A stretch of DNA of 64,000 nucleotides, from the NCBI RefSeq assembly GCF_036588685.1, contig NC_086378.1:54560001-54624000 (forward strand), written 5' to 3'. The position numbers and the translations under genes are program-made. A model generated the notes under the pieces. That model searched no databases and was not told the DNA's origin. It was given only the letters and a program-made list of their open reading frames with translations. Origin of the DNA: Mytilus trossulus. Its lineage: Eukaryota. Shown in pieces: positions 8,421-50,797 of this stretch (within the stretch, counting starts at the first letter, position 1; each line of letters opens with the position of its first letter).

Positions 8421-8780
8421 ATGAGGATTTCCACTCTTTTAACAGTTGCAATATGTATCATAATTACCATAACTTCTATAATGGCACAATTTAATGTCGA
8501 CATTGCTGGTGGCGGCGGCGGCGGCGGCGGTGGACCTAACGCTCCAGGCGGGAGAGGAGGAGATGTAATTACAAACATAAGAATTAATGGAGGTGGAAGA
8601 TTCTTTCGTGGGGGAGGTAATGATCAAGGCGGAAGAGGAAACCAAAGAGGCAATGGAAGAGGAAATAATAGAGGAAACGGAAGAGGAAATAGTAGAGGAA
8701 ATGGTAGAGGAAATAATAGAGGAAATGGTAGAGGAAATGGAAGAGGGAATGGACGTGGTAAAGGTAAAGGAAGAGGTTGA
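8421..8780 (+). CDS. Secreted Gly-rich cationic protein, paralog 1 (119 aa; 1 G9 module; RGN(G/N/S) repeat tail)
   Basis: Acceptor ttttttttcAG (8410-8411) 9 nt before ATG 8421; hydrophobic signal peptide MRISTLLTVAICIIITITSIMA; module NVDIA-G9-PNAP-GGRGG-DVITNIRI; TGA 8778-8780; AATAAA at 8797. The ORF-track start (8376) is intronic. Confidence 0.88.
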   Translation: MRISTLLTVAICIIITITSIMAQFNVDIAGGGGGGGGGPNAPGGRGGDVITNIRINGGGRFFRGGGNDQGGRGNQRGNGRGNNRGNGRGNSRGNGRGNNRGNGRGNGRGNGRGKGKGRG

Positions 8781-11700
8781 AAGAAGTGAAGTCAAGAATA
8801 AAAACTTCACCCGTATATGACTTTGAATTACACAGCTTTGATGAAATGGTGTAGATAATGACAAAGCTATTCATATTTTTGTTGTTGTTTTTAGTTGTGT
8901 TTTTGTTGTTGTTGTGTGTGTGTGTGTGGTTTTTTTTATACAGTTGTTGCTCTCGATCTTCTTTAAAACTTCAGTAACCATATCCTGACATGTCAGCTTA
9001 ACACAAAACGAAGTGATTTGCCCAACACTGAAAGGACTATTTATAGGCATTAGAAGATGTTCAGAGATAACGGATTTTATAGTATTTTTTCACGTGTAAG
9101 AAAACATTGTGAATAAAATTAGTTTTCACTTCATCTTTTTGTCTACAATGAAGTACCATATGTCTTCACCGAACATAATCAGATTTGCAAAACTGTACCT
9201 GGTAGATTCAAATCAAATTGTTTTAGATCTATATAGATCTGTTAACGAATTATACTAGAATCGTTAGCGAGCTCTATGATTCTGATGGGCCGCACATTAC
9301 GAGTTTCTGTATTAAACTTTAACAGGTATACATGTATATGAAAAAAGAGATATTCGCGCGTACGACACGTGTTTCTGGAATAAACTTTATACAGAAACAA
9401 AAAGATGTGGTATGAGTGCCAATGAGACAACTCTCAATCTAAGTCACAATTTTTAAACAGTAAAACATTTTAGGTCAAAGTACGATCTTCTACAAGTTAC
9501 ATTCAAGTTCAACTCGAAGTATGGAAAGCCATCAATGTGAAATGCGAAAGAGGTCAACTTTTTTTAATAAAAGATACTTGAACAGAACAACCAAAAACTG
9601 CATAAAAACCAATTCCCAGGAAAAAGATATCTGAGCGCTCATAAGCATGTTTAACCCCGCTACATTCTATAGGTACCTGTCCCAAGTAAGGAACCTGTTA
9701 TTTAGGGAAAATCCTTGATTGCTGTCTTTTTCTGTTGTTTGTTTTATTTTTACACACAAACATATATAACCCCACCACATTATATGTGTGCCTATCACAT
9801 AGTAAGGAACCTGTTATTTAGGGATAGTCCTTGGTTGCTGTCTTTTTCTGATGTTATTTTTATTTTTACACGGAAACATATTCAACCCAACCACATCTAT
9901 TTGTGCCTTTCACTTAGTAATGCACCTATAATTCAGCAAAAGTTGTTGGTTGCTGTCTTTCATATTTTTTTTTCATTTATTGTTGTTTACAAAACACAGA
10001 CCGTGGGTTTCCTCGTTAGAATTGTTCCACATTTTGTCACATCGGGCTCTTTATTAGCTGACTATATGATATGGGTTTTGCTCATTGTTGAATATCGTAC
10101 GGTGATCTATGGTGCTTATATCCATTTCATTCGGACTGAGGTGTAAAGTTCATACGGACATACCACATCTTATTCTATAACGTCAACTTCTATTAGATAA
10201 ACAACTCAGTCTGGCTTAGGTCTTGGAACACAGTTATTGTCCTTTATACGAATATAGTCCCTAGAATGGACAGTGTGTTACTTGCAATTTTTTCTTTACC
10301 CCTTCCAAATCTATGTCATCATGTTCATGTCTCAAATAGCACATTGGGTGATAAAATTACACTGTAAAACCATTTGGGTCATAAATTTTAAAGTAAAGAA
10401 GTGATTTTTGTCTAACTGAAAAAGGGACAAAAGAGCATTTCGGAAGCTGTCAAAAGATTCCAAGACCCCCTATACATAAAACTTCCATATTTTGAGTTAT
10501 AGCTGATGAAGTTTTGAATAATTTTGATATAATTTGTCCCAAAAGTAGTACAACACACTGTAAAATATTATTGAGAAAGCGCAGGTGCTTTTTTTTTAAA
10601 TTTCCATGTATTGTCTCTACGTTATAACTGTGATCTCAGGCCATTAGTAGCGAATGATTTGGGGGTATGAATGAATTTCCTCGTCACAAAGCCATCTAAA
10701 TATGATGATTTCTTTATAGCTACATTGTATGATGGTGACATGTAAAGAGAAGGTATTTATTATTTGTTGACGTCCACAATAAATTCATGTTGTGTTTCCT
10801 TGTAATAAATTTGACATTTATTTATTTTCCTCGCACTTGTTTGTAAAAGTTCAGACGTGAACGACCAACCATTTGAGAACCAGGTAAAGTTGTGTTATTT
10901 TGTATGATAATTATTCTTTCTACACATTTTTATGTAATAATTAATAGTTCTTTCTACACATTTTTATCTAGAATATAAAGATAGGCTAATTTACATATTT
11001 ACATAATTTTTTATGAGCGTTTAAACATTTTGACATAATTGTGAATTAATTTGTTGACGTCTTTATGATAGGTTTTACCTTATGATTATACACGGAGATA
11101 AATAAACACACTGACATATTATAATATATATTATATTATAAAATGCGGAAACGTAAATAACATTTAACAAAATCAATGTAAAAACAATGCAGAGAAGAGT
11201 ACTATAATTGTATAAAATCACGGACAATAAAAGTCACAATTTAGTTTTTGAGATTATTTTCTCTTCGAATAAGAAAAAACTTATTACTAGAAAATATTTT
11301 GTATTTTTCTTGAACTATTATACGTAAACAAAATTTATCAAAAATATGAATAATGATAAAATATTTTTTTAAGAAAACAAAATGTCAAATCATTTTACCT
11401 TTGGAGAATGGATCCCCTGTTTCTATATGAAAATTCATTTTTGCTCGTTTCTCAATTGCATATATTCTGTGAAAATTTACCTTCTTTTCACTTTTGTGTT
11501 TTGCTTTTTTAATACGATACTACAATGACAAAATTTCAGAGACTGAATTTTCGGCTCTCCCTTGACACCATTTGCGAGTATGGTCTTGAGGAAACGATGA
11601 TAGTCCGTCGGAAGGGAACGATCCACATGGTTGACCCGTGTTAAGAGAGAGCCATATCTCTTGCACGTAAAAGACACCCTTGTAGATTTTGCAAAGGAGC

Positions 11701-13250: not shown

Positions 13251-16200
13251 TCAGGTATTTTTGGATAAGGTATGATCTAAAATTCGTAATGGCGTTTAAG
13301 AAGAGGACCCAGTCCGTACTACAACTTCTACTCAGTCAACATTGCAGTCTATATAATGATTATATGATAATGTATATCGCTTCTGAACAGTAAGAAAACG
13401 TATGCTCACCCAGACGTTAGTGTTCAAGCTGTTAAAAAGATTTACGTATGAAGCGGTGACCAATTTCTTCGTTTATATTATCCTAAAAAATAAAAACATG
13501 TCTAATATGTCCAATAATCAAGGCCTTTGATTATAGAAATTCCTTTTTATGGATGGAATTAACATGGAAATTATACAAAAAATGGACACTTTACGAAAAA
13601 AAAATATCAAACAATGACAAATGTATAGCAAAGTAGGTAAAGACCGGTTGGTCTGGGTTTTTGTAAATCATTATTGTTAACCATTCCTCCCGACTTTTGA
13701 CTATTTACCACAAACGATATGTTAACATATAGTATATAACAAGGAGCACTCATCGCAATTACGTTGTTTATCAATTCATTTAATTAATGGACTGTCACAA
13801 CAAATCGGGTTATATGTCTAATCAAACTGAACCGTCTTTTGTAACCAGTTAAAAAACAAAAAAAAAGGCAATAGTAGTTTACCACTTTTCAATAGGCATA
13901 AATCAATTTAACTGAAACAAATACGGGTCACAAACAAAGACTGAGTAAACACATCAACTATAAGACGGGAAAACGAAACAAACACCAACGTACATAGAAA
14001 CGATCTATGTGATAACAACTGCCATAATCCCGACTTGGGACATGACATTTTAAGAAAACAAATGATTTCAGCATAGCGATTTTAGAGATTAATAATTAGG
14101 TTTATTCTACATTATATAAAATTGAGAATGGAAATGGGGAATGTGTCAAAGAGACAACAACCCGACTATAGAGCAGACAACATCAGAAGGTCACCAATAG
14201 GTCTTAAATGCAGAGAGAAATTCCCACACCCGGAGGCGTCCTTCAGCTGACCCCTAAACAAATATATATACTAGTCAGATGACTATTTCCCCCAAGAACT
14301 TATTTCATTAAGTCACAGGGACAAATTCCAAAAGTCGTTGAAACTTACTGGAACATAACCATAAGAATTAAGCAATGAGTTTACTCAATGATAATATGTT
14401 TATGATATGAGTTGTCAATAATCTCTAAACATTGTTGTTGAAGTAAATTTTGAAAAAAAAATAGATAACCGAAACTTGTTTCCCTTAAATTTGAATTGAT
14501 GATTTGATTGACTGAATGTTTTGCTTAATGTTTAGTCACAATTTTTCACGCATACTCAGGACTAGCGTCAATCAAGAATAACCGCTTAAGGTGGCTCGGG
14601 TGTCTTCCTCCATCCTGGATTTTGAAGAATCAGATAACTTTGGTCTAGATATTTGATGAAATGTGCAAATTTTGAGAGTTGGATGTAATTTATGTGAAAG
14701 ACTTTTGATATTAATATAGAAAATTGTGTGTTTTATCATAATTTCTATACAGTTGTAATTTCTCAAAAACACCTTGTTTGTGTTTGATTAGATTTTTTTC
14801 AACTTTGTCAAATAATGGGATATAACTCGGATAAAGTTATTCTAAATTAATAATAGAAAGTGTTATGAATTTACCTATTTTGATATGTAGCAAGAAAACA
14901 AGTTCGGTGACCCCATTTTATTCTTTTTCTTATCTGAAAGCATGTTTTAAGTTCAATATTCTCACATTTTATCTGAAAGTTCTAATAGTACGTTTTCTTT
15001 TTATCACACAAAATTTGATTTTCTATGTATAATCTATACAAAATCTGACAATTTTGCACAACCTGTAGCGTGAAAAAAAGTCTGGTGACCCATACTTTTT
15101 AATACAGTTTTGAAAAAAGCATGATAAAAACCTCATTTTGACAATTTATCAAAACATTCTATCAATTTTAAGTAATACGCCCTAGCCACCTTAACTGTTA
15201 TACAATAAAATAAACTTTTCCTCCGAACAACATCTTGTTTATCAAATATGTGTAATATTTTGAATTTGTAATTGATTTATTGGAAATCTTTTAGTAGCAT
15301 GCGTATGTTCTGTAAATCAGCTATAATCCCTAAACCTATCGCACTGTATAAAATTTACAATTTATTAATTTATAAATTTCTCAAAAGGTATGCACACAAT
15401 TTAAATAGCCTCCGAGCAAATGAATCGGGTTAGAACTTTCTTAATAAGTGTTTTGGAAATTTTAAAAAGATTTAACCAAGTGACAACATTTAATTTTTTT
15501 TTATTGCAAAGCGATTTAGGCTGTAAGTACTACATGTATTTTGGCTGGAAATACTTTTATCAATAAAAACTATTACTTTATTTATGAATACTGTTAATTT
15601 AAAAATTATTGCGAAAAATGCGCCAGGGTTGTTTAAACTCGCATTTTGAATTTTTTTATTAGAACTATACAGAATTTTTTCACTATCGTAAAAATAAAAA
15701 TCGAATTTTAGTCTTAAATGACAAAATCGCAATCATAAATGCACGCAATAATGTCTGAATTTGCAGTATGTAGTAATAAGAGATTTTTCGGTTAACTTAA
15801 ATCAAACGACAACTGCACATATGCTCTAAAACGAAGAGTCGATACTTTAAGATCTAGTTAGAGACTTGGCTTGATACAACTCTGTGTAGTTGATCTATTA
15901 CAATTGAATGACGCCTGGTTAGACCAAAAAGAGAGATTAAAGTTACAAAAAGGATAACCAAATTCATTAGTCAAAAACATACAGGTAATGCAGTGGTCAA
16001 ATATAAAAAAAACGATAAAAAGACAAACAACAGTACACAAAATAAAACATAAACTAAAGACTTAGCAAGACGAACCGCACCAAAAAATCCGTAATGATCT
16101 GAGGTGCTCCGGAAGGGTAAAGAAAAACATATACTGCTCGACATGTGACCCAAGAAATATTTGCCTATATTTTTCGTATGATGTCAAAGCATATATAAAA

Positions 16201-16354
16201 GCATAAAATATAATTAGAAAGGAACACAATCTTTCACAATGTCCATTGAAAATGTGCATATTTCAGATATGTTTTCAAATCAGTTCAAGTAAGAATGTGG
16301 GATTTCCCTAATGTCTCATCAATGTGTTTTTTTTTTCTTTTTCAGTGACAGATT

Positions 16355-16903
16355 ATGAACTGTTCTATCGTTTTTTTGATAGCTTCAATATCTATTGTGT
16401 ATTACATCAACTCTGTTTCTGCCCAAGTAAATGTCGACATAACTGGTGGCGGAGGAGGCGGCGGTGGTGGTGATCAAGCACCTGGCGGTAGAGGTGGCGA
16501 TGTCAATACTAAGATTGTCATAAAAAAAGGTAGAGGAGGAAAAAGAGACAAAATTAAAGTAAACGGAAAAACAGTTGGGAAAGGAGAAAATGCAGGTGTT
16601 ATAAAAGTAAATGGAAAAAAAGTTGATATAGGAGGAAAAACAGGTATAAAAGTAGACGGAAAAGGTGTTATCGGAGGTAGAGGGAGAGGACAAGTTGGAC
16701 AGAGAGGACCAGTTGTAGGGAGAGGACAAGTTGGAGGGAGGGGACCAGTTGTAGGGAGAGGACAATTTGGAGGCAGAGGACCATTTGTAGGGAGGAGACA
16801 AGTTGGAGGACAAGGACTAGGGGGACTTCTATTAAACGGACTAAGAAGACAAGTTAGAAAGTTACTGGGAAATGCTGTTAGTCCAAGGGTTAGACGATTT
16901 TAA
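16355..16903 (+). CDS. Secreted Gly-rich cationic protein, paralog 2 (182 aa; 1 G9 module; IKV(N/D)GK and GRGQVGGRGPVV repeats)
   Basis: Polypyrimidine tract plus AG (16344-16345) 9 nt before ATG; signal peptide ending VSA|Q; module NVDIT-G9-DQAP-GGRGG-DVNTKIVI; AATAAA at 16924. Confidence 0.9.
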   Translation: MNCSIVFLIASISIVYYINSVSAQVNVDITGGGGGGGGGDQAPGGRGGDVNTKIVIKKGRGGKRDKIKVNGKTVGKGENAGVIKVNGKKVDIGGKTGIKVDGKGVIGGRGRGQVGQRGPVVGRGQVGGRGPVVGRGQFGGRGPFVGRRQVGGQGLGGLLLNGLRRQVRKLLGNAVSPRVRRF

Positions 16904-17841
16904 TTATTTAAATATCCAAAGACAATAAATCGACAAATATCATTTGTTTTATTTCTATGTCCGAGTATTCTTTTTACAATCACATATACATAGGCATTCC
17001 ATTCCCTAGCAAGACTGAATAAACAATCAGTCAGCATCAGGAAACACACCAGGATCAATATCAAAAGCATCTCAAATTTGAAGAGTATCGCACATTATCG
17101 TTTTAGCTAAATGTCAATCATACAAAGTGACTATGATACATCATTATATTTATAGTAAGAATAAAACTAAAACGTCTGATGAAAATAACTACGAATTAAA
17201 ATGTTTTATTCAACACTGGCATGCCCGATTTAACGTTGTCTGTATTTTTATATGACATCATACATTTATCTTATTTTCTTTTAAGTTGAGAAATAATAAA
17301 ATTGAAGAATTTTTTAAATTCAAAATTCTGAATAAATTACGATCTATAACATGTAAAACACTATATTTCAAACAGCCAATCTGAAATGAATCATACAATG
17401 AAAACTCGAAATAGATTTTCATTTTCATTTTACCTTCATCAAATGACCAACTCAAAAGCTCAAACACATCAAATGAGGGATAACAACTGTGACTTGGTAC
17501 AGGCATTTTCTTATATGCAAATGGTAGATTACACCTGGTTTTAAAGCTAGCCAAACCTTTCACTTGTATGACAGTCGCATCATAATCCATTATATTGACA
17601 ACGATACGTAAACAAAACAAACAGACATAATACGAACAAAATGTTAAAATTAGGGGTATAGCAGTCAACATTGTGTTATAATCTTAATCACTAAAAAACA
17701 ACAAATATGTAACTAAATAAAACGAGTAACATACATTGTACATGTAAAGTTATGCTGGATTCTAATCGGTTTTTTTTTTTCGTCAAAGAATTGTGTACAA
17801 ACTTACATTTCAGCAATGATGTAAAGGTGTGATATTATAAC

Positions 17842-17930
17842 TAGGGATGGCAAAGAGTACTCGACTACTCAGGTACTCGGTCGGAAGCCCGAGTACTCGA
17901 GTACAGTTTTAGTACTCGGATACTCGTTTT
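17842..17930 (+). mobile_element. One end of a hAT-like MITE (TAGGGATG plus TACTCG subterminal repeats)
   Basis: TAGGGATGGCAA followed by several TACTCG/CGAGTA motifs; the matching other end was not found. Confidence 0.4.
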
Positions 17931-19025
17931 CCTGTCATCTTGAGATATTTCTCTTCACATTTCCACTGACTTTAGTTCCGTTGAAATATCCCCTTCGTAA
18001 TACTAAACAAAATCAAGTAACAACTTAAACATGTTTATCCTGGGGATACTATTTGTTACAGTAGAACCAGCAACACTATTTCCTTCCAAGGGAATGTTTT
18101 CATGTGTACAACTTGTAAAAAAAAATAAGAATTCAAACAGTCTTTCATTTGAAATTGTTGACCAGATCATATTTCTAAACAAGAACAAAATCTAAGTGAC
18201 CTGCGGTGAACCCTACGCAACTGATTAGAGACATTTGTAACGGCGTTTTAACACGGATCAACACTTTCATGGATTAATAATTAACTCATCACAAGCCGTA
18301 AAAACTTACTGTTGTTTGTTAATCAAGACTTCTGTGTAAACGTGATTGGTATGCGATGTACATTTAAATTAATTAATTACTCTGTATTTGAAACTTATTA
18401 AGTAAACTGATAACTGTTTAATTTACAATTTAAAGATAGGCGAAAGTACGAGAGAGGCATTCGAACCCAAAAGTCGAAAATAAACTGACAACGTCATGGC
18501 TAAAAAAATGAAAATCAGAAAAACGATAGTGCAAGAAAAACAAAACACAGAAAAAGTAGAACCGAGAACGCCAAAAACACAAGTAATTTGTAAACCAATA
18601 TTGTTGTTGACAAATTAATTGACAAGATGTATTATAACAAATTAACAACTCATCAGGAACTGATGATACATATATTGCAAATATTTTTGATTTTATTGGA
18701 ATTTGGTTCATGAACACGTACACAAACAATAATTGCTATTATGATAGGTTATTTGTAGAAACGGCGGTCGGCAATTCGTTGTTTAATTGACACAAAAACA
18801 GAGGATAAAGCTCTGTTTGAAGTACGTATGTTTGTCGTTAATATGTATATGAAAGGTGATAACAAAAATGTTTGTAGTACGTATGTCTGTCGTTAATATG
18901 TATATGAAAGGGGTTATTGTCCTTTAATGACAATTTTTCACAATTTGTTCATCATATTTGCTAACTTTTAAAAAATCTTCTCCTCTGAATAGTTATCAAA
19001 AGTACCAGGATTATAATTTTTTTAT

Positions 19026-19069
19026 ACGCCAGACGCGCGTTTCGTCTACATAAGACTCATCAGTGACGC
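19026..19069 (-). ncRNA. Minimal type I hammerhead ribozyme
   Basis: GCGUCA-CUGAUGA-GUCU(uaugu)AGAC-GAAA-CGCGCG-UC|UGGCGU: core boxes, stem II, stem I with 2 G-U pairs, palindromic stem III; predicted cut after GUC between 19032 and 19031. Confidence 0.88.
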
Positions 19070-19383
19070 TCACATCAAAAAAGTTCAAAAGCCAAACAAA
19101 TACAAAGTTGAAGAGCATTGAGGACCCAAAATTCCAAAAAGTTGTGCCAAATACGTCTAAGGTAATCTACTCCTGGGGTAAGAAAATCCTTAGTATTTCG
19201 TAAAATTCAAAGTTTTGTAAACAGAAAATTTATAAAAATGACCATGTAATTGATATTCATGTCAACACCGAAGTGCTGACTACTGGGCTGGTGATACCCT
19301 CGGGGACGAAACGTCCACCAGCAGTGGCATCGACCCAGTGGTGTAAATAGTTATCAAAAGTACCAGGATTATAATTTTTTTAT

Positions 19384-19427
19384 ACGCCAGACGCGCGTTT
19401 CGTCTACATAAGACTCATCAGTGACGC
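19384..19427 (-). ncRNA. Minimal type I hammerhead ribozyme
   Basis: Identical to 19026-19069. Confidence 0.88.
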
Positions 19428-19741
19428 TCACATCAAAAAAGTTCAAAAGCCAAACAAATACAAAGTTGAAGAGCATTGAGGACCCAAAATTCCAAAAAGT
19501 TGTGCCAAATACGTCTAAGGTAATCTACTCCTGGGGTAAGAAAATCCTTAGTATTTCGTAAAATTCAAAGTTTTGTAAACAGAAAATTTATAAAAATGAC
19601 CATGTAATTGATATTCATGTCAACACCGAAGTGCTGACTACTGGGCTGGTGATACCCTCGGGGACGAAACGTCCACCAGCAGTGGCATCGACCCAGTGGT
19701 GTAAATAGTTATCAAAAGTACCAGGATTATAATTTTTTTAT

Positions 19742-19785
19742 ACGCCAGACGCGCGTTTCGTCTACATAAGACTCATCAGTGACGC
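19742..19785 (-). ncRNA. Minimal type I hammerhead ribozyme
   Basis: Identical to 19026-19069. Confidence 0.88.
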
Positions 19786-20099
19786 TCACATCAAAAAAGT
19801 TCAAAAGCCAAACAAATACAAAGTTGAAGAGCATTGAGGACCCAAAATTCCAAAAAGTTGTGCCAAATACGTCTAAGGTAATCTACTCCTGGGGTAAGAA
19901 AATCCTTAGTATTTCGTAAAATTCAAAGTTTTGTAAACAGAAAATTTATAAAAATGACCATGTAATTGATATTCATGTCAACACCGAAGTGCTGACTACT
20001 GGGCTGGTGATACACTCGGGGACGAAACGTCCACCAGCAGTGGCATCGACCCAGTGGTGTAAATAGTTATCAAAAGTACCAGGATTATAATTTTTTTAT

Positions 20100-20143
20100 A
20101 CGCCAGACGCGCGTTTCGTCTACATAAGACTCATCAGTGACGC
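20100..20143 (-). ncRNA. Minimal type I hammerhead ribozyme
   Basis: Identical to 19026-19069. Confidence 0.88.
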
Positions 20144-20457
20144 TCACATCCAAAAAGTTCAAAAGCCAAACAAATACAAAGTTGAAGAGCATTGAGGACC
20201 CAAAATTCCAAAAAGTTGTGCCAAATACGTCTAAGGTAATCTACTCCTGGGGTAAGAAAATCCTTAGTATTTCGTAAAATTCAAAGTTTTGTAAACAGAA
20301 AATTTATAAAAATGACCATGTAATTGATATTCATGTCAACACCGAAGTGCTGACTACTGGGCTGGTGATACCCTCGGGGACGAAACGTCCACCAGCAGTG
20401 GCATCGATCCAGTGGTGTAAATAGTTATCAAAAGTACCAGGATTATAATTTTTTTAT

Positions 20458-20501
20458 ACGCCAGACGCGCGTTTCGTCTACATAAGACTCATCAGTGACG
20501 C
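20458..20501 (-). ncRNA. Minimal type I hammerhead ribozyme
   Basis: Identical to 19026-19069. Confidence 0.88.
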
Positions 20502-21674
20502 TCACATCCAAAAAGTTCAAAAGCCAAACAAATACAAAGTTGAAGAGCATTGAGGACCAACTACTGAATGGATTTGGATAAAACTTAGCATGATTGTTCC
20601 TTAGATTATCCTGCACAAAGTGTGTGCTTAGATTTTCGATCCATCAAAAAACATGGCCGCCGTTACTTAAAATAGAACATAGGGGTCAAATGCAGTTTTT
20701 GGCTTATATCTCAAAAATGAAAGCATTAAGAGCAAATCTGAGAGGGGTAAAAATGTTCATTAGGTTAATATATATCAGCCCTGAACTTTTCAGATGAATC
20801 AAACAACCCATTGTTGGGTTGCTGCCACTTAATTGGTAATTTTAAGGAAATTTTGCAGTTTTTGGTCATTATCTTGAATATTATTATAGATACAGATAAA
20901 CTGGTTATAGCAAAAATGTAAAGCAAAGTAAGATATACAAATAAGTCAATTTGACCAAAATTGTCAATTGACCTCTTAAGGAGTTATTGCCCTTTAAAGA
21001 CTTTTTTCACAATTTGTTCATCATGTTGACTTACTTTAAAAAATCCTCTCCTTTGAAACTGCTGTATCAATTTCAGCCAAACTTAGGCTAAATGAGTTTC
21101 AGAGTTTCAGAGTATCTAGTATAAATTTTATATTTCATTTCCTTGTATGTCAAGAAACATAGCTCCTATGGCTAAAATAAAACATAGGAGAAAATGATTT
21201 TTTTTTGCTTTTGAAGAAAATAGGACGATCCAAAAAACATTTAAATAAATTGAAAAGCCAAAATAATCATTGATGAGAGATTTAACCAAAAGAATTAAGG
21301 TGAGCGATTCAGGCTCTTGAGAGCCTCTTGTTTATTGTAGTTTTTTGTATATCATATATATAAAAGTAACCATTACTCTCTGACCTTTGGATGATACTGT
21401 GAGTATTTGCATTGCAATTTCTTGTTTAGATGTGATAAATAAACGATAAATCTTTTATTGCAAATTTCTCTGCTGTTAAAAAAATTGTGTTATGCTTGCA
21501 CAGTTCAAAATAAACCTTCAGAATAAAAAAAAAACGTAAACCCTTCTTAAAGTTGAATAAATAGTTCATTATTTTGTTGTGTTGGTATTATAATACACGA
21601 TGTATTCATTGCTGTTTGAATAATGTATTGCTACAAATATCCCAAAACATGAATAATCCTTTTTGGTTTATAGT

Positions 21675-22150
21675 TCTTTAAGCTTTGGATTTTTAAAACA
21701 TTTTGCCTCGCGCATCACTAAAGAGACATTAATTGTTGAAATTGGCATCTGCAATTTTGTTGTTCAACACTATTGGTACGTTTATGTAAATACTATCATT
21801 GGGTCGATGCCTCTGCTTGTGGACATATAGTTCCTAAGACTAACTCCATCCCAGAAGCCAATACTACGGTACTGGCATGATGATATGGATTTGCGTTATC
21901 AAAATTTGCTGTTACAAAATTTTGGAAATTATTTTAAATCAAGGACTATATTTCTCTCATTCAAAGCTCTAATTACTTCCGCGTTGTTTTGTTTGTTTGT
22001 TTTTTGTCTATATTGTTTTGTCCTTTTTGCTTAATAAATATTGATCTGCTTGATAAGCTTTGGGATTTTAAATATTTTGGCCTCGAGCAACTCTGAAGAG
22101 ACATTTATTGTCGAAATGCGCATATAGAGACGTGATTCTGGTACCGTGTT
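21675..22150 (+). mobile_element. Degenerate retrozyme-like repeat of a second family (~375 bp period)
   Basis: Repeated agcttt..gattttaaa..gcctcg segment; core CTGAAGA-GAC-atttatt-GTC-GAAA-TGCGCA-TA at 22093-22124 with stem I eroded; decayed copy near 21718-21750. Confidence 0.6.
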
Positions 22151-24936
22151 TGATATTAAACAATATGTACAATCATTAGATCATGTATACATTTTGCAGT
22201 TGGTCAACCATGATTTTGTAGGATAAGGGGATAAGACTTCCATCTTCATTCCAACTTATAGCACCTCAAAGAAGTTGCAAGGGGTCGTAAACATACAGAT
22301 AGAGTGACACTCTCTCTACATGCACCATAGGATTTTATCGCCCCCTTTTTGCATTAGTAAAATGTATATGAATTCCAAAATTCAAATTTTATATAGATCT
22401 TCGTTTACAATAAAGAAAATATTTTAGAATAAAGGCAAATGAACACAGGGTAAACAAACTGTCTGAACAACGGTGGTCGGACACACAAGTTATGTTTGGA
22501 AAAAACACTATTCAATTGTTATAATACCAGGCTCAACCCACCTTTTCTTCTTATAATGTCCTGTATCATGTTAGGAATATGGCAATTGTTATAAAAAAGG
22601 CCGTATCTATAAAATATATTATGTTGGCGTTTATTTTTATAGAAGTTCAGTGTTTATGTCATTCCGTTGTTTCTCACTTAATGTTGATGTATATCTCTCA
22701 GTTTTTTTGTTGTGTCCTGGATTTGTTTTTAACCTAATCGATTTATGACTATTGAACAGTTGTATACTCCTATTGCCTTAATTTTTAGGTTACTTATATG
22801 CGTATTACTTTTACTTCATGCATTAAAGTTGAATTGAAAATAACGAAATTGATTATATTTAAGGAGACGAAATATTTGACAAAATTGGTTTCATTGTTAA
22901 TGGAAGATGGGGTAAAAAAATAAACATACACATTTGTCAGTTGATAGCAGAATTGTGAATCTATTTAGTTAGGCTATATGTAGACGATACGGTGTATATT
23001 TTGAAAGATAAGTAAAGGTTGAAACTATTGCATATTCGTTTTCATTCAATACGTTAACTTAAGTTGAAATCACTCTAACTACTAAGTAAATTTTATCCAG
23101 GTAACCAACGTCCAACATACGGTTGAGTAGTTTTAATCTGTTAATATCGATGCTTATATCTCATCAATCGAATTTGGAAGATATAAACCAAACTGAGGAT
23201 CGTGTCCGCAGTGTGCATAAGTTAATTTATAAAGGAAATTGTAATATTTCGTTATTATTTTAGTTAAATCAAATAAACCCGACTTTTGCATAATAGCGTA
23301 TGTGCTTGCAAAAAGTAATATCACAAAAGTACTGAACTCCAAGGAAAAATTCAAGTGCAAAGCAGGTAATAAAATTGTTAAAAAAATCGGGGTATTTACC
23401 GACCTATTATATGCGCACTCGTCATAACTGCGTCGTTTATCCATTTACTTAATAAATTGACTGTCTCAAATTACAACAAAAAAGGTTAAATGTCAAGCTT
23501 GACCGTCATATTGTCTCCAATAAAATATATAAACAAACCCAAAATATTGGTTGGACGATTCTGAAGTTATAATACAGACATAAGTGTTACCACTTACAGT
23601 ATTACTCAAAAATTAATAATTGGTTTTCTGGTTTGAAAATAGATTTAAACGTCGTTTATATATAGAACATCAACTTTATACGCATATTTGGGTATGTATA
23701 GTTAAAATAATTATCAATTTAACTAAACATTTAGCATGGCGATTCTAATGTGTACGGAGTTTTATTTAAAGAAGATTTATACTTGCTGTCATCGACTTTC
23801 ATTATTTACCGTTGTTACTTTTTGTAAAACCTTCAATTGGAAACAGAGGAAATTAGTTCATTATTTTATTTTGTTGTTGAGGTCAAATTTGAAATGAAAA
23901 TGACCAAAAAAGGAAATATGTTTTAGTAAGATACTTTGAGGGTTTGATTGCTTGAATTTTTTTCTAATGGATTTGTGCCTTTGCGTGCATATTCAGGACG
24001 ACCATTTAAAAGATGTAGTCAACCAAAGCTTATACATTTATATAAAAAAAAAAGCATACCGAGTTTGAGGCGACAATACAATCCATTGTTTCTATAAACC
24101 ATTTTAGACAAGGCGGAGTGAGACCTTTCTGAAAGATATATATATATATTTTTTAACCAATTATGTTTATAATTGAATGTGAATAAAACAAGAAATAACG
24201 TTAAATAATCATGAACAACTGAGCATGCGCTATAGGGTGAATGGATTAGGTTTATAATGTAACATATAGTTAAAGTCTAATTAAAAACCAGATATTATTA
24301 AACAGTCCAGGACACAATTCTAAAGTTAGACAAATGTTTAAAAAATACAAACCAAAAAACAAAGAAAAATTACGATTTCAGTAAAAAAAAAAAAAAATCA
24401 TGTAGTTAAACGCATTAAATACGTTATCTATTTTCAATTATGGGTAGCAAATTCAGACCTATGTATATGATCTGTTAAAACTGAATGACGCCTGACTGGC
24501 CTTACAAAGAGAAGGGATATACTAAATGGATAATCAAACTCCTAAGTGGAAAATTAACAGTCAATGCAATGGTCAAAAATGAAAAACGACAAAAAGACAC
24601 AAATCAATATACAAAACCCAGCAATGAAAACTAAAAACGAGCAACTCGAACTCCCAAAAAGAAACAAGGGTATAGCAGGTGCACTGGAAGGGTAAACATA
24701 TCCTGTTCGACAAGTGACAACCCAAATATCGGCCTTTATACTTCATAATAGACATATATCAAAGCAACATATAGAAATAAAAAAAATAATACTAGTTCTC
24801 ACAATGCACATTGACAATTTGTATTTTCACGAAAGTTTTCAAATCAGCTCAAATTAGGTATAAAGGAAGTGGGTTTTCCCTTATAATGTCTCATAATTAT
24901 ATATAGATTCTATTGATTTTTTTTCAGTGACGGATT

Positions 24937-25341
24937 ATGAACTGTGCAACCATTATTGTGATAGCTTCGATATCTGTTGTATTTTACCTCAACTCAGTAA
25001 CTGCTCAAGTAAATGTCGACATAACTGGTGGCGGAGGAGGCGGCGGTGGTGGTGATCAAGCACCTGGCGGTAGAGGTGGCGATGTCAATACTAAGATTGT
25101 CATAAAAGGAGTTGGAAGAGGAGGTATAAAAGTAAACGGAAACGGAGTTCGACAAGGAGGTAAAGGCAGATTAAATAATAAAGGTAGAAGACGAGGAGGA
25201 CAAAACATCGGGTTTGGAGGAAGAGGACAAGTTCGAGGGAGAGGACAAGTTTGGGGGCGAGGACAAATTCGAGGACTAGGACGAGGCGGGGGTCAGTATA
25301 GAGGATCACTAGGACATGCTGGTGGATTTAGACGTTTTTAG
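24937..25341 (+). CDS. Secreted Gly-rich cationic protein, paralog 3 (134 aa; 1 G9 module; GRGQ(V/I)x repeats)
   Basis: Acceptor AG 24926-24927, 9 nt before ATG, with near-identical context to paralog 2; signal peptide ending VTA|Q; module identical to paralog 2; ends RRF*; AATAAA at 25361. Confidence 0.9.
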   Translation: MNCATIIVIASISVVFYLNSVTAQVNVDITGGGGGGGGGDQAPGGRGGDVNTKIVIKGVGRGGIKVNGNGVRQGGKGRLNNKGRRRGGQNIGFGGRGQVRGRGQVWGRGQIRGLGRGGGQYRGSLGHAGGFRRF

Positions 25342-31109: not shown

Positions 31110-31628
31110 CGCCATATTTCAAAAATCAAAAATCTCGATGTTAAAAACCTATCAATATATTTGGCTTATTTGTTCCTGAACTAATGTTCTTCTGACTTAT
31201 TATATCAATTTCAAATGCTAGTTTAATTTCAACTAAAATCACCCTAAGATATAACACCATTATATCTTTTTAATCAAATATCTCAAAACGTAGTTGGATA
31301 ACCTATCAATATGTGTGGCATATTTGTTTCTTAACTAATGCTCTTCTGATTTATAGTATCAATTCCAAATTCTAGCGGTTTTTTTTATTTCAACTAATTA
31401 CATCCATAAATGTAATACAATAATATTTCAAAAATCAAATATCTCAAAAAGGAGTTCGATAACCTATCAATTTTTTTCGCATATTTGTTCCTTAACTCAT
31501 GCTCCTCTGATTTATAGTATTATTTTAAATTCTAGCGGGTTTTTTTTTTATTATTTCATTTAAGTACATCCATAGTTATAACACAATAATATTTAAAAAG
31601 AATCAAATATCTCAAAATGGAGTTCCAT
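31110..31628. repeat. Degenerate ~160-170 bp tandem repeat hosting the second retrozyme array
   Basis: aatcaaatatctcaaaa...acctatcaa...taatgctcttctga recurs three to four times and resumes at 32546. Confidence 0.65.
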
Positions 31629-31661
31629 TAGTTATCAAAGGTACCAGGATTATAATTTAAT

Positions 31662-31705
31662 ACGCCAGACGCGCGTTTCGTCTACATAAGACTCATCAGT
31701 GACGC
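31662..31705 (-). ncRNA. Minimal type I hammerhead ribozyme
   Basis: Same 44-nt motif as in the first array. Confidence 0.88.
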
Positions 31706-32018
31706 TCAGATCAAAACAGTTAAAAAGCCAAACAAATACAAAGTTGAAGAGCATTGAGGACCCAAAAATTCCAAAAAGTTGTGCCAAATACGGCTAAGGT
31801 AATCTACTCCTGGGCGTAAGAAAATCCTTAGTTTTTCGAAAATATCAAAGTTTTATAAACAGAAAATTTATAAAAATTACCATATAATTGATATTCATGT
31901 CAACACCGAAGTGCTGACTACTGGGCTGGTGATACCCTCGGGGACGAAACGTCCACCAGCAGTGGCATCGACCCAGTGGTGTAAATAGTTATCAAAGGTA
32001 CCAGGATTATAATTTAAT

Positions 32019-32062
32019 ACGCCAGACGCGCGTTTCGTCTACATAAGACTCATCAGTGACGC
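32019..32062 (-). ncRNA. Minimal type I hammerhead ribozyme
   Basis: Same 44-nt motif as in the first array. Confidence 0.88.
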
Positions 32063-32375
32063 TCAGATCAAAACAGTTAAAAAGCCAAACAAATACAAAG
32101 TTGAAGAGCATTGAGGACCCAAAAATTCCAAAAAGTTGTGCCAAATACGGCTACGGTAATCTACTCCTGGGCGTAAGACAATCCTTAGTTTTTCGAAAAT
32201 ATCAAAGTTTTATAAACAGAAAATTTATAAAAATGACCATATAATTGATATTCATGTCAACACCGAAGTGCTGACTACTGGGCTGGTGATACCCTCGGGG
32301 ACGAAACGTCCACCAGCAGTGGCATCGACCCAGTGGTGTAAATAGTTATCAAAGGTACCAGGATTATAATTTAAT

Positions 32376-32419
32376 ACGCCAGACGCGCGTTTCGTCAACA
32401 TAAGACTCATCAGTGACGC
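32376..32419 (-). ncRNA. Minimal type I hammerhead ribozyme (one stem II substitution)
   Basis: Core intact; plus strand reads gtcaaca instead of gtctaca, which shortens stem II. Confidence 0.8.
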
Positions 32420-32975
32420 TCAGATCAAAACAGTTTAAATGCCAAACAAATACAAAGTTGAAGAGCATTGAGGACCCAAAAATTCCAAAAAGTTGTGCCA
32501 AATACGGCTAAGGTAATCTACTCCAGGGCGTAAGAAAATCCATAGTAATGCTCTTCTGACCTATAGTATCAACTTCAAAATCTAGTAATCACATCCTTTA
32601 ACATAACACAATAATAACCACTGGCACAGAAGCTATGCAAGCCAATTCACACGAAAGTATGTAAAATTACATATTGTATTTTAATAAAATCCCCTTTCTT
32701 TTCCCAATCTTAAAACATTATAATCTACAAATTACAAAAAAAAATTGACAATGACAATGACAAATCATACGGATTCTATGTAATGATTCAAAATTCATTT
32801 CATTGGATAATATAAATGGGTATGCAAATTTAAGAAAGGTGTTTCACCTCAGTCTATACATGTAATGCATTTATATATTTATTTTATTTTTTTTATTTTT
32901 AATAGATTGTACGAAGCTACGACAAACTGAACTAATGAAAAACAGTCATAAAGACCAAGTTTTACTCTATACACA

Positions 32976-33437
32976 ATGAAAGTTGCAAACGGTTTATTAA
33001 CAATCCTTATCTTTTACAATTGTTGTTCTGTGCTGATCTGTGGACAGAAAAGTCACAATAATGGTTTAAATTTGAATATTTCTGGAGGAGGGGGTGGAGG
33101 AATTGGAGGAATTGGTCCCGGGGGAGACGGTGGAAGCGTCATCACTAACCTGAATATCAAGAAAATAAAAAATGTTCGCAAGAATAAAGGCGACAGACAA
33201 AAGATTAAGTTAGCAAACGGGACAACCCTTGAAGGATTTAATTTAAATATTAATGGCGGCGGAGGTGGTGGCGGCGGTGGTCCTGGAGCAGGAGGCGATG
33301 GTGGAGATGTAATTACTAATGTTAATGTGGGAAAGATGAAGAATGTTGATAAGATTAAACCGTGGAAGAAAAAGAAAGACAAAAAAGACAAAAAGAAGGA
33401 TAAAAAAGATAAAAAGAAAGACAAAGAAACAAAATAA
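32976..33437 (+). CDS. Secreted Gly-rich cationic protein, paralog 4 (153 aa; 2 G9 modules; KKD-repeat tail)
   Basis: Signal peptide MKVANGLLTILIFYNCCSVLICG; two modules 57 aa apart; Lys/Asp tail; candidate acceptor AG 32904-32905; AATAAA at 33480 and 33551. Confidence 0.88.
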   Translation: MKVANGLLTILIFYNCCSVLICGQKSHNNGLNLNISGGGGGGIGGIGPGGDGGSVITNLNIKKIKNVRKNKGDRQKIKLANGTTLEGFNLNINGGGGGGGGGPGAGGDGGDVITNVNVGKMKNVDKIKPWKKKKDKKDKKKDKKDKKKDKETK

Positions 33438-40292: not shown

Positions 40293-41090
40293 ATGAACAT
40301 CTCAATAACTGACATCGGGCTGATATGGATCCTTTGCATTTATAACTATTGTTCATGCCATGGATATTATGGAGATCATTATTATAGAGGACAGGGACGA
40401 TATTCAAGGCAAAAACCGCAATCATACGGTAGAGATTTAGAAAGTCCATTTAAAACGGAAGCCATAGAACAAAGTCAATTAATCAAAGACTTAAAAGCAC
40501 GTGTTAGCAATTTAGAAAAAGTTATCCGTGATTATAAGGATGGAAACATTGATATTAATATCAAAGGAGGAGGGGGTGGTGGTGGAGGCGGACTCGAACC
40601 AGGAGGAAATGGTGGAAATCTAACGACTCATTTATTTATAAAGAAAATCAAAACGGTTCATACTAAAGATGGAACAAAAGTCATTATAAAGCCTGGTGAT
40701 GGGCGAACATTACGAGCGCTTAAACTAATGATCGAAGGAGGAGGTGGCGGGGGTGGGGGCGGAATAGGAAAAGGCGGCGACGGTGGAAGTATATTTACAA
40801 ACTTGACAATCAAAACATTTAAGACTGTATTTAGAGATGGAATAAATGTCACTACTGCAGAGGGTATAAATCCACTAGAAGGACTCGGTTTGAACATTAA
40901 AGGCGGTGGCGGAGGTGGCGGCGGCGGTACAGGCCCTGGTGGCGATGGCGGTGATTTGATTACATCTATTGTCATAGAGAATGTAAAGGATGTAACTATT
41001 AATGGAACTTGGACAAAGGAAGATAGGAAGGCATGGAAATTAATGAAGAAGTTACGGAGGCAAAAGAATAAACAGAAAGGAAATAAATAG
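40293..41090 (+). CDS. Secreted Gly-rich cationic protein, paralog 5 (265 aa; 3 G9 modules)
   Basis: Acceptor tttgtAG (40286-40287) 5 nt before ATG 40293 (ORF-track start 40248 is intronic); signal peptide; Tyr/His-rich N-terminus; short heptad segment; three modules at 57 and 55 aa spacing; K/R tail. Confidence 0.9.
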   Translation: MNISITDIGLIWILCIYNYCSCHGYYGDHYYRGQGRYSRQKPQSYGRDLESPFKTEAIEQSQLIKDLKARVSNLEKVIRDYKDGNIDINIKGGGGGGGGGLEPGGNGGNLTTHLFIKKIKTVHTKDGTKVIIKPGDGRTLRALKLMIEGGGGGGGGGIGKGGDGGSIFTNLTIKTFKTVFRDGINVTTAEGINPLEGLGLNIKGGGGGGGGGTGPGGDGGDLITSIVIENVKDVTINGTWTKEDRKAWKLMKKLRRQKNKQKGNK

Positions 41091-44938: not shown

Positions 44939-45745
44939 ATGAACATCTCAATAATTTACATCAGTGTGATGTTTATCTTTGTTATTTATAACAATTGTTC
45001 AGGACATAGATCATATGCAGAAAACTATCGCCGAAGACACGGAAGACTACCAAGACATAGACCACGATCTAGAACTTTTGGAAGAAGATTAGGAAAGAAA
45101 GCAATACAAAAAAGTCTAGCTCCGAAAGAATTAGAAAGAACTTTAAGCAATACTGATCAGGTAGCACTTTCTAATATTGACAGAAATATCAATATGAATA
45201 TAAAAGGAGGCGGAGGTGGTGGCGGGGGAGGAATCGATCCAGGTGGAAATGGTGGAAATCTTACTACTAACTTGTTTATTAATAAAATCAAGACAATTCA
45301 TACCAGTGACGGAACAATAGTAAAAATAAAGCCTGGTGATGGACGAACATTAGAGGCACTTAAATTGATCATTGATGGGGGAGGTGGCGGGGGAGGAGGG
45401 GGGATAGGAAAAGGCGGTGATGGAGGAAGTTTATTTACAACCTTGACAATCAACAAATTAAAGACTGTTTTCAGAAATGAAGCAAATGCAACTATTGTTG
45501 AAGTTCAAAACCCTCTACGTGGACTCAGTTTGAATATTAATGGCGGTGGTGGAGGTGGAGGTGGGGGACCAGGTCAAGGTGGAGATGGCGGTGATTTGGT
45601 TACAAACATTGTCATAGGAAAAGTTAAGACAGTCACAAAAAATGGTGCTAGAAGAAGAAAAAATAAAAAGGATCGGAAATTAAAAAGGATGTTGAAGAGA
45701 AAAAGGAATAACAAAAACAAGATTAAGCCATTACCTAATTACTAG
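44939..45745 (+). CDS. Secreted Gly-rich cationic protein, paralog 6 (268 aa; 3 G9 modules)
   Basis: Acceptor ttgcAG (44932-44933) 5 nt before ATG; signal peptide; Arg-rich N-terminus; three modules (57/55 aa spacing); K/R tail; AATAAA at 45850. Confidence 0.9.
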   Translation: MNISIIYISVMFIFVIYNNCSGHRSYAENYRRRHGRLPRHRPRSRTFGRRLGKKAIQKSLAPKELERTLSNTDQVALSNIDRNINMNIKGGGGGGGGGIDPGGNGGNLTTNLFINKIKTIHTSDGTIVKIKPGDGRTLEALKLIIDGGGGGGGGGIGKGGDGGSLFTTLTINKLKTVFRNEANATIVEVQNPLRGLSLNINGGGGGGGGGPGQGGDGGDLVTNIVIGKVKTVTKNGARRRKNKKDRKLKRMLKRKRNNKNKIKPLPNY

Positions 45746-49930: not shown

Positions 49931-50797
49931 ATGAACCTTACAGTTAGTTATGCCGTCGTGTTTTGGTTACTTGTCATTGATGACAATTGTTCAGCAGAGC
50001 TAACAGATGACAATAAAGTTATAGAAACGAGAGAAAAAGACACGGAAAAAGAAGCAAAAGTAAAGTTTCAACCATTGAAAACAGATTTTAAAAATGCTAT
50101 TAGTAATGCTCAAGAGGTCAACCATGATAATAATAAAGGAAATTATAGTTTGAATATTAAAAGGGGTGGTGAGGGCGGGGGTGAAGGAATCAGTCCAGCT
50201 GGAGATGGTGGTAGTATTAGAACTAATTTTGTTATCAAGAAAATAAGGACGATTCATACAAGTGAGGGATCAAAAACACTTATCAAAACAGATGATGGAC
50301 GAAAATTAACTTCACTTAATTTAGTTATTGACGGAGGAGGTGGCGGCGGTGGAGGTGGAGTAGGAAAAGGCGGAGATGGAGGAGGGGTAATAACAAACCT
50401 GTTAATCAGGAAAATTCAGTCTGAGCATAGAAAAGGGTCAAAGGTCACTACTTCCGGATCTGAAAGCCCTCTACATGGAGTGAGTCTTAACATTAAGGGT
50501 GGTGGTGGCGGAGGCGGCGGTGGACCAGGTCCGGGAGGCAAAGGTGGAAACCTTGTTACAAATGTTGTTATAGGGAAACTACAGCAAAGAGATTCTAGAA
50601 ATGGGTCTGTGGAAAGAGCAAATCAGAAGAAAAAGCAAATTGTTAAAGACGCTAGAAATGGTACCGTTGAAAGAGTAGATCATAAGGAAAAGAAAATTGT
50701 AAAGAACGCGAGAAAGAAACTAATGAAAGCAATGAAAAATCAAAAAAAGAAAAGGAAACGGATCGAAAAAGAAGGCAAAAAGACTAGAGAAAAATGA
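49931..50797 (+). CDS. Secreted Gly-rich cationic protein, paralog 7 (288 aa; 3 modules, first one substituted)
   Basis: Acceptor ttcAG (49924-49925) 5 nt before ATG; putative signal peptide; modules at 57/55 aa spacing; long Lys-rich tail with a 19-aa internal duplication. Confidence 0.88.
   Translation: MNLTVSYAVVFWLLVIDDNCSAELTDDNKVIETREKDTEKEAKVKFQPLKTDFKNAISNAQEVNHDNNKGNYSLNIKRGGEGGGEGISPAGDGGSIRTNFVIKKIRTIHTSEGSKTLIKTDDGRKLTSLNLVIDGGGGGGGGGVGKGGDGGGVITNLLIRKIQSEHRKGSKVTTSGSESPLHGVSLNIKGGGGGGGGGPGPGGKGGNLVTNVVIGKLQQRDSRNGSVERANQKKKQIVKDARNGTVERVDHKEKKIVKNARKKLMKAMKNQKKKRKRIEKEGKKTREK

What the first reader, a model, noticed from the sequence alone, without database searches (positions are those of the whole stretch)
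16424..25107. Paralogs 2 and 3 share a 102-nt perfectly identical tract that covers exactly the module
Seen: 16424-16525 and 25006-25107 are 100% identical (34 codons, including every synonymous Gly position), while the adjacent signal-peptide codons differ at 15 of 69 nt and the tails align only in patches with large indels. The tract starts at the predicted mature N-terminal Gln and ends at the module boundary. Inference: recent gene conversion confined to, or retained only in, the module. This is the reverse of the usual secreted-peptide pattern of conserved signal and variable mature region.
Basis: partly seen in the sequence, partly recalled or inferred. Interest (0 to 1): 0.7.

Follow-up and report, generated by a model that had tools for sequence, protein, structure and literature searches.

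The report
Gene-conversion island in mussel polyglycine genes
Two neighbouring mussel genes that differ at about a quarter of their aligned letters share one perfectly identical 102-letter stretch, most likely copied between them by gene conversion (a well-known process), and that stretch encodes one unit of a secreted protein family predicted to fold into rare polyglycine helix bundles.

Summary
In detail: 16424-16525 and 25006-25107 are identical over exactly 102 nt, against 15/69 differences in the signal and about 24% in intron and 3' flank. It is not an assembly artefact: a public DNA run collapses exactly these 102 letters into one contig that forks into both genes. It is not nucleotide-level constraint: in a related mussel about 5% away the two copies differ at 5 fixed places plus polymorphic silent ones, and a second relative shows the same pattern. 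Non-allelic gene conversion is the best explanation (about 0.8). Protein constraint keeps the module alike, so conversion can persist there while flanks drift, a pattern already described. 'Recent' and 'exactly the module' are only partly supported: donor and date are unresolved, the 5' edge rests on one silent change, and the silent-site signal weakens to P about 0.06 when corrected for scanning. The better lead is the protein: an eight-gene Mytilus cluster of secreted, cationic proteins with one, two or three strand-polyGly-polyGly-strand modules. The three-module core is predicted to match the six-helix polyproline-II bundle of snow flea antifreeze protein (Z 8.1, rmsd 1.7 A).

The parts
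16424..16525 (+). Identical tract, copy in paralog 2: codons 24-57, the whole strand-polyGly-turn-PGGRGG-strand module
   Evidence: single-module model has strands at residues 2-8 and 27-33 of the module (pLDDT 59, low)
25006..25107 (+). Identical tract, copy in paralog 3
   Evidence: one 102-nt contig in run X1 covers exactly these places with 0 other letters
16355..16903 (+). Paralog 2 coding exon, 182 aa: signal, one module, three IKV(N/D)GK repeats, Gly/Arg/Val/Gln-rich tail
   Evidence: a contig of run X6 covers 16343-17050 in one piece
24937..25341 (+). Paralog 3 coding exon, 134 aa: signal, one module, Gly/Arg-rich tail
   Evidence: a spliced contig of run X6 carries its 5' end
10843..10883 (+). 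3' part of the 5' non-coding exon of paralog 2, followed by GT at 10884; intron to the AG at 16344-16345
   Evidence: loose end of the X6 contig matches 10854-10877 exactly; donor read
23552..23691 (+). 5' non-coding exon of paralog 3 (start estimated from a 139-nt loose end), followed by GT at 23692
15882..16354 (+). Intron stretch homologous to 24459-24936, 24.5% different: the clock for the age of the duplication
8421..8780 (+). Paralog 1, 119 aa, one module; with the gene just upstream of the window (L003:1438-1701) it forms the control pair
32976..33437 (+). Paralog 4, 153 aa, two modules, Lys/Asp tail
40293..41090 (+). Paralog 5, 265 aa, three modules; its core was folded
44939..45745 (+). 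Paralog 6, 268 aa, three modules
49931..50797 (+). Paralog 7, 288 aa, three modules, the first partly degenerate (two Gly to Glu)

Best explanation
The 102-nt tract is a real shared sequence of two tandem paralogs 8.6 kb apart, most likely made identical by non-allelic gene conversion that is likely confined to the module because only there has protein constraint kept the copies alike enough to pair and interchangeable enough for the result to be kept. Shown: identity, old divergence of the flanks, presence in an independent contig graph, freedom of the silent sites in relatives and in other paralog pairs. Inferred: conversion as the cause; probably more than one event (an older one, then one in this lineage with paralog 2 the likelier donor); the 3' end set by an old indel. 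Predicted: the module is one strand-PPII-PPII-strand hairpin, a third of the six-helix polyglycine-II bundle that the three-module paralogs are predicted to form. Inferred from composition only: an extracellular structural or surface-binding role for these secreted, Cys-free, strongly cationic proteins.
For: (1) 0/102 differences against 110/449 in the intron and 15/69 in the signal; with the protein held fixed, about 6.8 silent differences are expected and P(0) is 5e-4 at the intron rate. (2) Control pair of like age, paralog 1 and its upstream neighbour: 15/66 differences in the signal, 14/102 in the module, 7 silent among 30 same-residue codons (Fisher P 0.003 against 0/34); paralogs 5 and 6 differ at 20 to 22 of 102 in each of three modules. 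(3) Run X1: one contig of exactly 102 nt at 25006-25107, no other letter, joined by 30-nt overlaps to the paralog 3 signal, the paralog 3 tail and the paralog 2 tail; its depth 96.4 is close to 39-40 plus 60. (4) Run X6: one contig spans the paralog 2 tract with 9 other letters in 708, none in the tract; run X2 forks into both tails at 25107. (5) Organisms C and D, 4.2% and 5.1% from the window: paralog 2 carries 25015 G>A and 25038 A>T in both; paralog 3 of D carries 25080 T, 25084 A, 25086 T (loose end, table 7) and varies between its two forms at 25044, 25068 and, by contig ends, 25035; in C the copies merge only over 25039-25079. (6) Every conversion model scored 114 to 95,000 times above 'no conversion' over 6 parameter sets. 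(7) Published pattern: conversion continues in stretches of high identity between diverged tandem paralogs (PMC3966223, passages) and is favoured where purifying selection keeps coding sequence alike (PMC3924837, passages).
Against: (1) The tract was picked because it is identical: allowing the silent run to lie anywhere in the aligned region gives P 0.06 for 28 effective sites and 0.36 for the 21 four-fold sites alone; at an assumed silent rate of 0.15, P(0) is 0.011. The ratios rest mostly on this same zero. (2) No lineage-specific letter shared by both copies, the hallmark of concerted evolution, was found. (3) In D the 3 to 5 silent differences are not significantly below the 6.8 expected without conversion (P 0.09 to 0.33), so conversion is not shown there. 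(4) Organism B is only 0.65% from the window, closer than another sample of organism A (1.3%), so it is no second species. (5) X1 may be the sample that the assembly came from, its library is not on record, and contigs drop rare variants. (6) The fold rests on a model with mean pLDDT 70, pTM 0.58, three of five models under 50; Foldseek gave no match at E <= 0.001.
Confidence: 0.8

Rival explanations
1. Purifying selection on the module plus chance: the protein is frozen, and the roughly 28 effective silent sites happened not to change in either copy; the pair was noticed because of that.
For: The module is the conserved core of all 15 copies (10 invariant columns of 47). Scan-corrected P is 0.06 to 0.36. 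The window's letters are the ancestral Val at both places where relatives have Ile (paralog 1 and its neighbour have Val), and no shared derived letter was found.
Against: P(0) at this predefined unit is 5e-4 to 4e-3. It needs no change on both long branches since duplication (about 7 to 9 expected) and then 5 changes on the short branches of C/D. The tract has 6 CpG and three of them are changed in D. The control pair has 14/102 differences.
Confidence: 0.13
2. Selected homogenisation: the one-module proteins 2 and 3 would have to co-assemble through their modules, so selection favours identical modules and fixes conversions; conversion is then adaptive, not merely tolerated.
For: The tract equals one structural unit, and three such units make the predicted six-helix bundle in paralogs 5 to 7. 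Both genes are spliced and present in the same run X6.
Against: In C and D the two modules differ by Val/Ile changes, so identity is not required. Selection on the protein cannot by itself equalise silent sites. Paralog 1 and its neighbour, also one-module genes, are not homogenised.
Confidence: 0.08
3. Nucleotide-level constraint (RNA structure, regulatory element or fixed codon choice) holds the tract unchanged.
For: Only the identity itself; the 3' half of paralog 2 (25050-25107) is unchanged in C and D.
Against: Silent sites vary in C and D and between the two forms of paralog 3 in D. The tract folds no better than shuffles (z -0.45; 61 of 200 as good). No Rfam match at E <= 1 in 16300-16950. 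Gly codons are mixed across the family (chance of identity 0.32).
Confidence: 0.02
4. Assembly or polishing artefact: reads of one paralog overwrote the other's tract.
For: X1 may be the assembled sample; no contig bridges the whole tract at paralog 3, and no raw reads were available.
Against: In X1 all 4 laid contigs have 0 other letters and no second version of the tract appears; both paralog 3 flanks run 30 nt into the same tract. X2 shows the same fork at 25107.
Confidence: 0.02

Closest known systems
Non-allelic gene conversion between diverged tandem paralogs, e.g. C. elegans fog-2/ftr-1 and col-12/col-13 (PMC3966223, passages seen)
   Same: Neighbouring paralogs, overall silent divergence near 28% for fog-2/ftr-1, islands of complete identity of 70 to 102 bp, conversion in both directions; for the collagens near-identical coding sequence with unlike flanks.
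   Different: Here the island coincides with one predicted folding unit, and no converted allele or shared polymorphism has been seen yet.
Conversion kept in coding sequence by purifying selection (PMC3924837, passages seen)
   Same: Conversion silent in non-coding flanks while constraint keeps the coding part alike enough to pair.
   Different: The scale is one 34-codon module inside a single exon, not a whole coding region.
Glycine-rich polyproline-II (polyglycine-II) helix bundles: snow flea antifreeze protein 2pne/3BOG, springtail 7JJV, Obg, acetophenone carboxylase, phage S16 gp38, ALK/LTK (bioRxiv 10.1101/2023.11.25.568672, parts 1-2 of 4 and passages seen)
   Same: The model of the three-module core aligns with 2pne at Z 8.1, rmsd 1.7 A, 66 of 81 residues, and with 7jjv at Z 6.0; six Gly-rich segments per core.
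   Different: Each helix pair is framed by beta-strands; the first helix is a pure Gly8-9 run, not Gly-X-X; no Cys and few Ala; family members carry one, two or three units; secreted with long cationic tails. 'Mussel', 'Mytilus' and 'mollus-' occur 0 times in that paper and in PMC13243192.
Mytilus CRP-I peptides, the 'usual' secreted-peptide pattern (PMC10138031, passages seen)
   Same: Clustered, secreted, cationic Mytilus gene family.
   Different: CRP-I has a conserved signal and propeptide with a variable six-Cys mature part; these proteins have no Cys in the mature chain, a variable signal and a conserved module.

Membership tests
Non-allelic gene conversion tract | Identical stretch longer than the flanking divergence allows | tested here: met
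   0 of 100,000 permutations reach 102; flanks 21-25% different
Non-allelic gene conversion tract | Identity extends to silent sites beyond what protein constraint gives | tested here: met
   0 silent differences against 6.8 expected, P 5e-4 at this unit; control pair 7/30. Weak after correction for scanning, P 0.06
Non-allelic gene conversion tract | Paralogs within a species closer than orthologs between species | tested here: met
   Window copies differ at 0; window vs paralog 2 of C and D at 2; window vs paralog 3 of D at 4 to 5. Not met inside D, where the paralogs differ at 6 to 7
Non-allelic gene conversion tract | Lineage-specific letters shared by both copies, or shared polymorphism | tested here: inconclusive
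   None seen; only about 0.4 to 1 such change is expected, and contigs drop rare variants
Non-allelic gene conversion tract | Non-reciprocal transfer with an identifiable donor | not testable with these tools
   No outgroup sequence of paralogs 2 and 3 was found; donor 2 is favoured over donor 3 about 9 to 12 fold in a rough model
Gly-rich PPII helix bundle | Several Gly-rich extended helices packed as a bundle | tested here: met
   Predicted only: VIA-align to 2pne Z 8.1, rmsd 1.7, 66 aligned; next unrelated row Z 4.0; model pLDDT 70. Z is at the level where the tool warns of common arrangements
Gly-rich PPII helix bundle | PPII backbone angles and C-alpha-H...O=C network | not testable with these tools
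Springtail antifreeze proteins | Gly-X-X repeats giving a flat Ala-rich ice-binding face (Ala face recalled, not from a call), disulfides in HhAFP | tested here: not met
   Modules are Gly8-9 runs; mature chains hold 0 Cys and 2 to 8 Ala
Springtail antifreeze proteins | Thermal hysteresis or ice shaping | not testable with these tools
   Needs purified protein
ALK/LTK glycine-rich domain or PE_PGRS | Sequence match to the family profile | tested here: inconclusive
   No Pfam match for 6 of 7 proteins and one E 0.45 SNARE match for the seventh; Atlas rows for PE_PGRS have TM 0.28 to 0.41
Mytilus CRP-I / Cys-rich defence peptides | Six-Cys array in the mature peptide | tested here: not met
   0 Cys in all 7 mature chains

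The most novel reading that the evidence does not exclude
The cluster is an undescribed animal family that builds a polyglycine-II bundle from a portable 34-residue hairpin: three-module paralogs fold it within one chain, one-module paralogs assemble it from three chains and so display different cationic tails on a common hub, and conversion between paralogs 2 and 3 keeps their hubs interchangeable while the tails diverge.
Probability: 0.2. Interest if true: 0.7.

Novelty: new member of a known kind. Interest (0 to 1): 0.36.

Why it matters
The tract itself is a tidy example of a known process and would matter mainly as a test case: population and outgroup sequences of 102 nt can show whether conversion is recurrent, GC-biased (the window has G or C at all 4 fixed places where the relatives' differing copy has A or T) and bounded by a folding unit. 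The family matters more. Natural polyglycine-II bundles are few, and a secreted mussel family with one-, two- and three-unit members would be a natural series for asking how such bundles fold and whether they can be built from separate chains, with use for protein design and for the materials of shell, periostracum or byssus.

Tried and rejected
Three copies of the 47-residue module of paralog 2 were folded as a complex: no verdict (score 0.03, mark 0.32, own fold uncertain, alignment not used). The single module alone gave a low-confidence model (pLDDT 59) and was not searched. Protein searches for orthologs of paralogs 2 and 3 found only paralog 3 itself (1 of 541 candidates; 1 of 12) or no candidate, so no outgroup could polarise the Val/Ile changes. 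The search of cluster representatives with paralog 4 gave 4 hits: itself, two three-module homologs and one bacterial-type fibronectin-repeat protein at E 1e-4, set aside as chance. PDB sequence search gave 30 matches, none under E 0.016, mostly Gly-Ser linkers. Foldseek gave no match at E <= 0.001; its best row was 7jjv at E 9e-3. ALK/LTK did not appear among the 50 rows, which does not exclude it. The ESM Atlas gave no usable hit. A third donor copy was sought: a DNA search of the genome gave 3 matches (both paralogs and the upstream gene at 78%) and a protein search 7 matches from 16 candidates, all in this cluster; both are lower bounds. RNA structure and Rfam were negative. The database name 'IcsA autotransporter-like' of the M. 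californianus homolog was rejected as an automatic label: no Pfam domain supports it in the window's homologs. An antifreeze role was considered from the fold match and rejected as unsupported by composition. Only 5 of the 22 listed runs were laid (X1, X2, X6, X14, X18). Earlier findings of this scan: 0 in four look-ups.
Full report
Observation. The two stretches are identical over exactly 102 nt, with a mismatch on either side. The signal codons differ at 15 of 69 nt, 5 silent and 9 amino-acid-changing codons. Homology between the two genes reaches about 470 nt upstream and 90 nt downstream, with 110/449 mismatches in the intron, 49/228 plus 156 gap columns in the tails and 20/83 in the 3' flank. 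The duplication is therefore old (corrected distance 0.30), and 0 of 100,000 permutations of the 931 aligned columns give a run of 102.

Setting. The window lies in a 1.3-Gb genome. Seven genes on the + strand, and an eighth 4.5 kb upstream of the window, share the module strand-Gly8/9-turn-GGxGG-strand: one copy in the upstream gene and paralogs 1, 2 and 3, two in paralog 4, three in paralogs 5, 6 and 7. Named homologs come from Mytilus californianus (XP_052059724.1) and M. galloprovincialis (VDI21650.1, 'hypothetical'), so the host is a Mytilus mussel by inference; the species was not determined. Genome searches found members only in this cluster (lower bounds). Paralogs 2 and 3 are each a single coding exon behind a 5' non-coding exon: contigs of run X6 join exons ending at 10883 and 23691 to the acceptors before the start codons. 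All seven mature chains are Gly-rich (18-42%), cationic (computed pI 9.9 to 12) and free of Cys.

Artefact test. Twenty-two runs were listed and five were laid, all as contigs. In X1 (organism A, DNA by guess) the graph holds one contig of exactly 102 nt on 25006-25107 with no other letter; the paralog 3 signal contig ends 30 nt inside it, and the paralog 3 and paralog 2 tail contigs begin 30 nt before its end; its depth, 96.4, is near 39-40 plus 60. This is what a true exact two-copy repeat gives. X1 may be the assembled sample, so it speaks against a polishing error but is no second individual. X6 (organism A, another study) covers paralog 2 in one contig with 9 other letters in 708, none in the tract. 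X2 (organism B) forks into both tails at 25107, but its middle part is uncovered and B is only 0.65% from the window.

Relatives. Organisms C and D are 4.2% and 5.1% from the window over the paralog 2 pieces. Contigs were assigned to paralogs by their flanks and depths across. Paralog 2 of both carries 25015 G>A (Val to Ile) and 25038 A>T (silent) and equals the window over 25050-25107. Paralog 3 of D equals the window at those two places but reads T, A, T at 25080, 25084, 25086 (silent; Val to Ile), seen in a loose end and in three contigs with 3 or more other letters; its two forms differ further at 25044, 25068 and, deduced from contig ends, 25035. In C the two copies merge only over 25039-25079, so they differ at 25038 and 25080; the rest of C's paralog 3 tract was not shown. 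Thus the tract is not invariant at the nucleotide level, and the window's version equals the relatives' paralog 3 in its 5' part and their paralog 2 in its 3' part. Paralog 1 and its neighbour have Val at both Val/Ile places, so the window holds the ancestral residues.

Is it conversion? With the protein held fixed, about 6.8 silent differences are expected at the intron rate and P(0) is 5e-4. The control pair, as far apart in the signal (15/66), differs at 14/102 in the module, and paralogs 5 and 6 at 20 to 22 per module. Against this, the tract was chosen for being identical: allowing the silent run to lie anywhere gives P 0.06 (28 effective sites) or 0.36 (21 four-fold sites), and D's own 3 to 5 silent differences are compatible with no conversion there (P 0.09 to 0.33). 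A rough Poisson comparison over 6 parameter sets puts every conversion history 114 to 95,000 times above none; an old event plus a later one with paralog 2 as donor scores highest (it has one fitted parameter), and one event just before the split, one event in this lineage and two opposite half-events remain within about 1 to 40 fold of it. So conversion is likely, its date and direction open. At the 4 fixed places with a strong/weak difference the window has G or C; this fits GC-biased repair but equally the usual drift of C/D towards A and T, three of the changes lying in CpG.

Edges. The 5' edge is the silent third letter of Ala23; contig ends indicate that D's paralog 3 has the paralog 2 letter there (record 13; records 11, 12), so coincidence with the mature Gln is good to about 5 nt only. 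The 3' edge is where the tails part with an indel, present also in C and D (tables 7, 8). The simplest mechanism is self-reinforcing: constraint keeps the module alike, likeness lets the copies pair, the indel and the diverged signal stop the tract, and conversions into the tails would alter distinct proteins. This is the pattern described in PMC3966223 (passages: fog-2/ftr-1, 28% silent divergence, identical stretches of 70 to 102 bp) and PMC3924837 (passages).

The module. No Pfam family, PDB sequence or Atlas cluster explains it. AlphaFold2 on the three-module core of paralog 5 with a 17-row alignment gave mean pLDDT 70 and pTM 0.58 for the best model, 62 for the second and under 50 for three; strands frame three 18-residue non-helical, non-strand segments. 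A structural search of 48,161 chains ranks the snow flea antifreeze protein first (Z 8.1, rmsd 1.7 A, 66 of 81 residues) and the springtail nine-helix bundle second (Z 6.0); the next row has Z 4.0. Foldseek's best row is also the springtail protein but only at E 9e-3. Each module is thus predicted to give two polyglycine-II helices between two strands, and the single-module model has its strands at residues 2-8 and 27-33 of the 34-codon tract (low confidence). The likeness is of fold: Cys and the Ala-rich repeats of the antifreeze proteins are missing. That a one-module chain must find partners to complete a bundle is my inference. An extracellular structural or surface role is inferred from signal, charge and Gly content alone; tissue is unknown.

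Prior description. Searches for Mytilus with polyglycine and glycine-rich terms and for the accessions and module motifs gave 0 papers. A survey of known PPII bundles (10.1101/2023.11.25.568672; parts 1-2 of 4 and passages) and PMC13243192 (passages) do not mention mussels. Listings of byssus, shell, ice-binding and conversion papers were seen as titles and abstract starts only, apart from the five papers named here; their supplements were not read, and proteome tables or subscription journals may list these proteins under other names.

Verdict. A real, probably converted, module-sized island: a new example of a known process, less recent and less exact than first read. The lasting lead is the family of secreted proteins with a predicted modular polyglycine-II bundle.

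Noticed in passing
window 8421-50797 and L003:1438-1701: Eight-gene cluster of secreted Gly-rich cationic proteins ordered by module number (1,1,1,1,2,3,3,3) on one strand; three-module core predicted as a six-helix polyglycine-II bundle.
   Followed up: partly
window 16556-16663: Paralog 2 has 2.3 copies of a 48-nt unit giving three IKV(N/D)GK motifs at 16-residue spacing; paralog 3 keeps one. The spacing recalls triple beta-spiral fibre repeats (recalled, not tested).
   Followed up: no
window 18988-20558 and 31629-32546: Tandem arrays of a 357-358-nt unit, 4.4 copies at 99% and 2.6 copies at 98%, with an inverted partial copy near 59760-60145; one array lies between paralogs 2 and 3. Likely the tandem core of a mobile element (inference).
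   Followed up: no
window 4056-4641 and 6317-6903: Local duplication of about 590 nt at 2.26 kb spacing, 91 to 99% identical.
   Followed up: no
window 16350 and 16373: All four runs read G and A here, as paralog 3 does; the window's letters look private to the assembled individual. One of the 15 signal differences (16373, Phe for Ile) is thus probably a polymorphism.
   Followed up: partly
window 50141-50240: First module of paralog 7 has two Gly replaced by Glu and one by Arg, where homologs in other samples read VGGGGG(D/G)GG: possible decay of one unit in this lineage.
   Followed up: no
window 16010-16130: Part of the shared intron is a very common genomic repeat (hundreds of contigs laid), so some of the upstream homology may be an element inserted before the duplication.
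   Followed up: no
window 31146-31625 and 63162-63576: Satellite-like arrays of 161 nt (3 copies) and 112 nt (3.6 copies).
   Followed up: no
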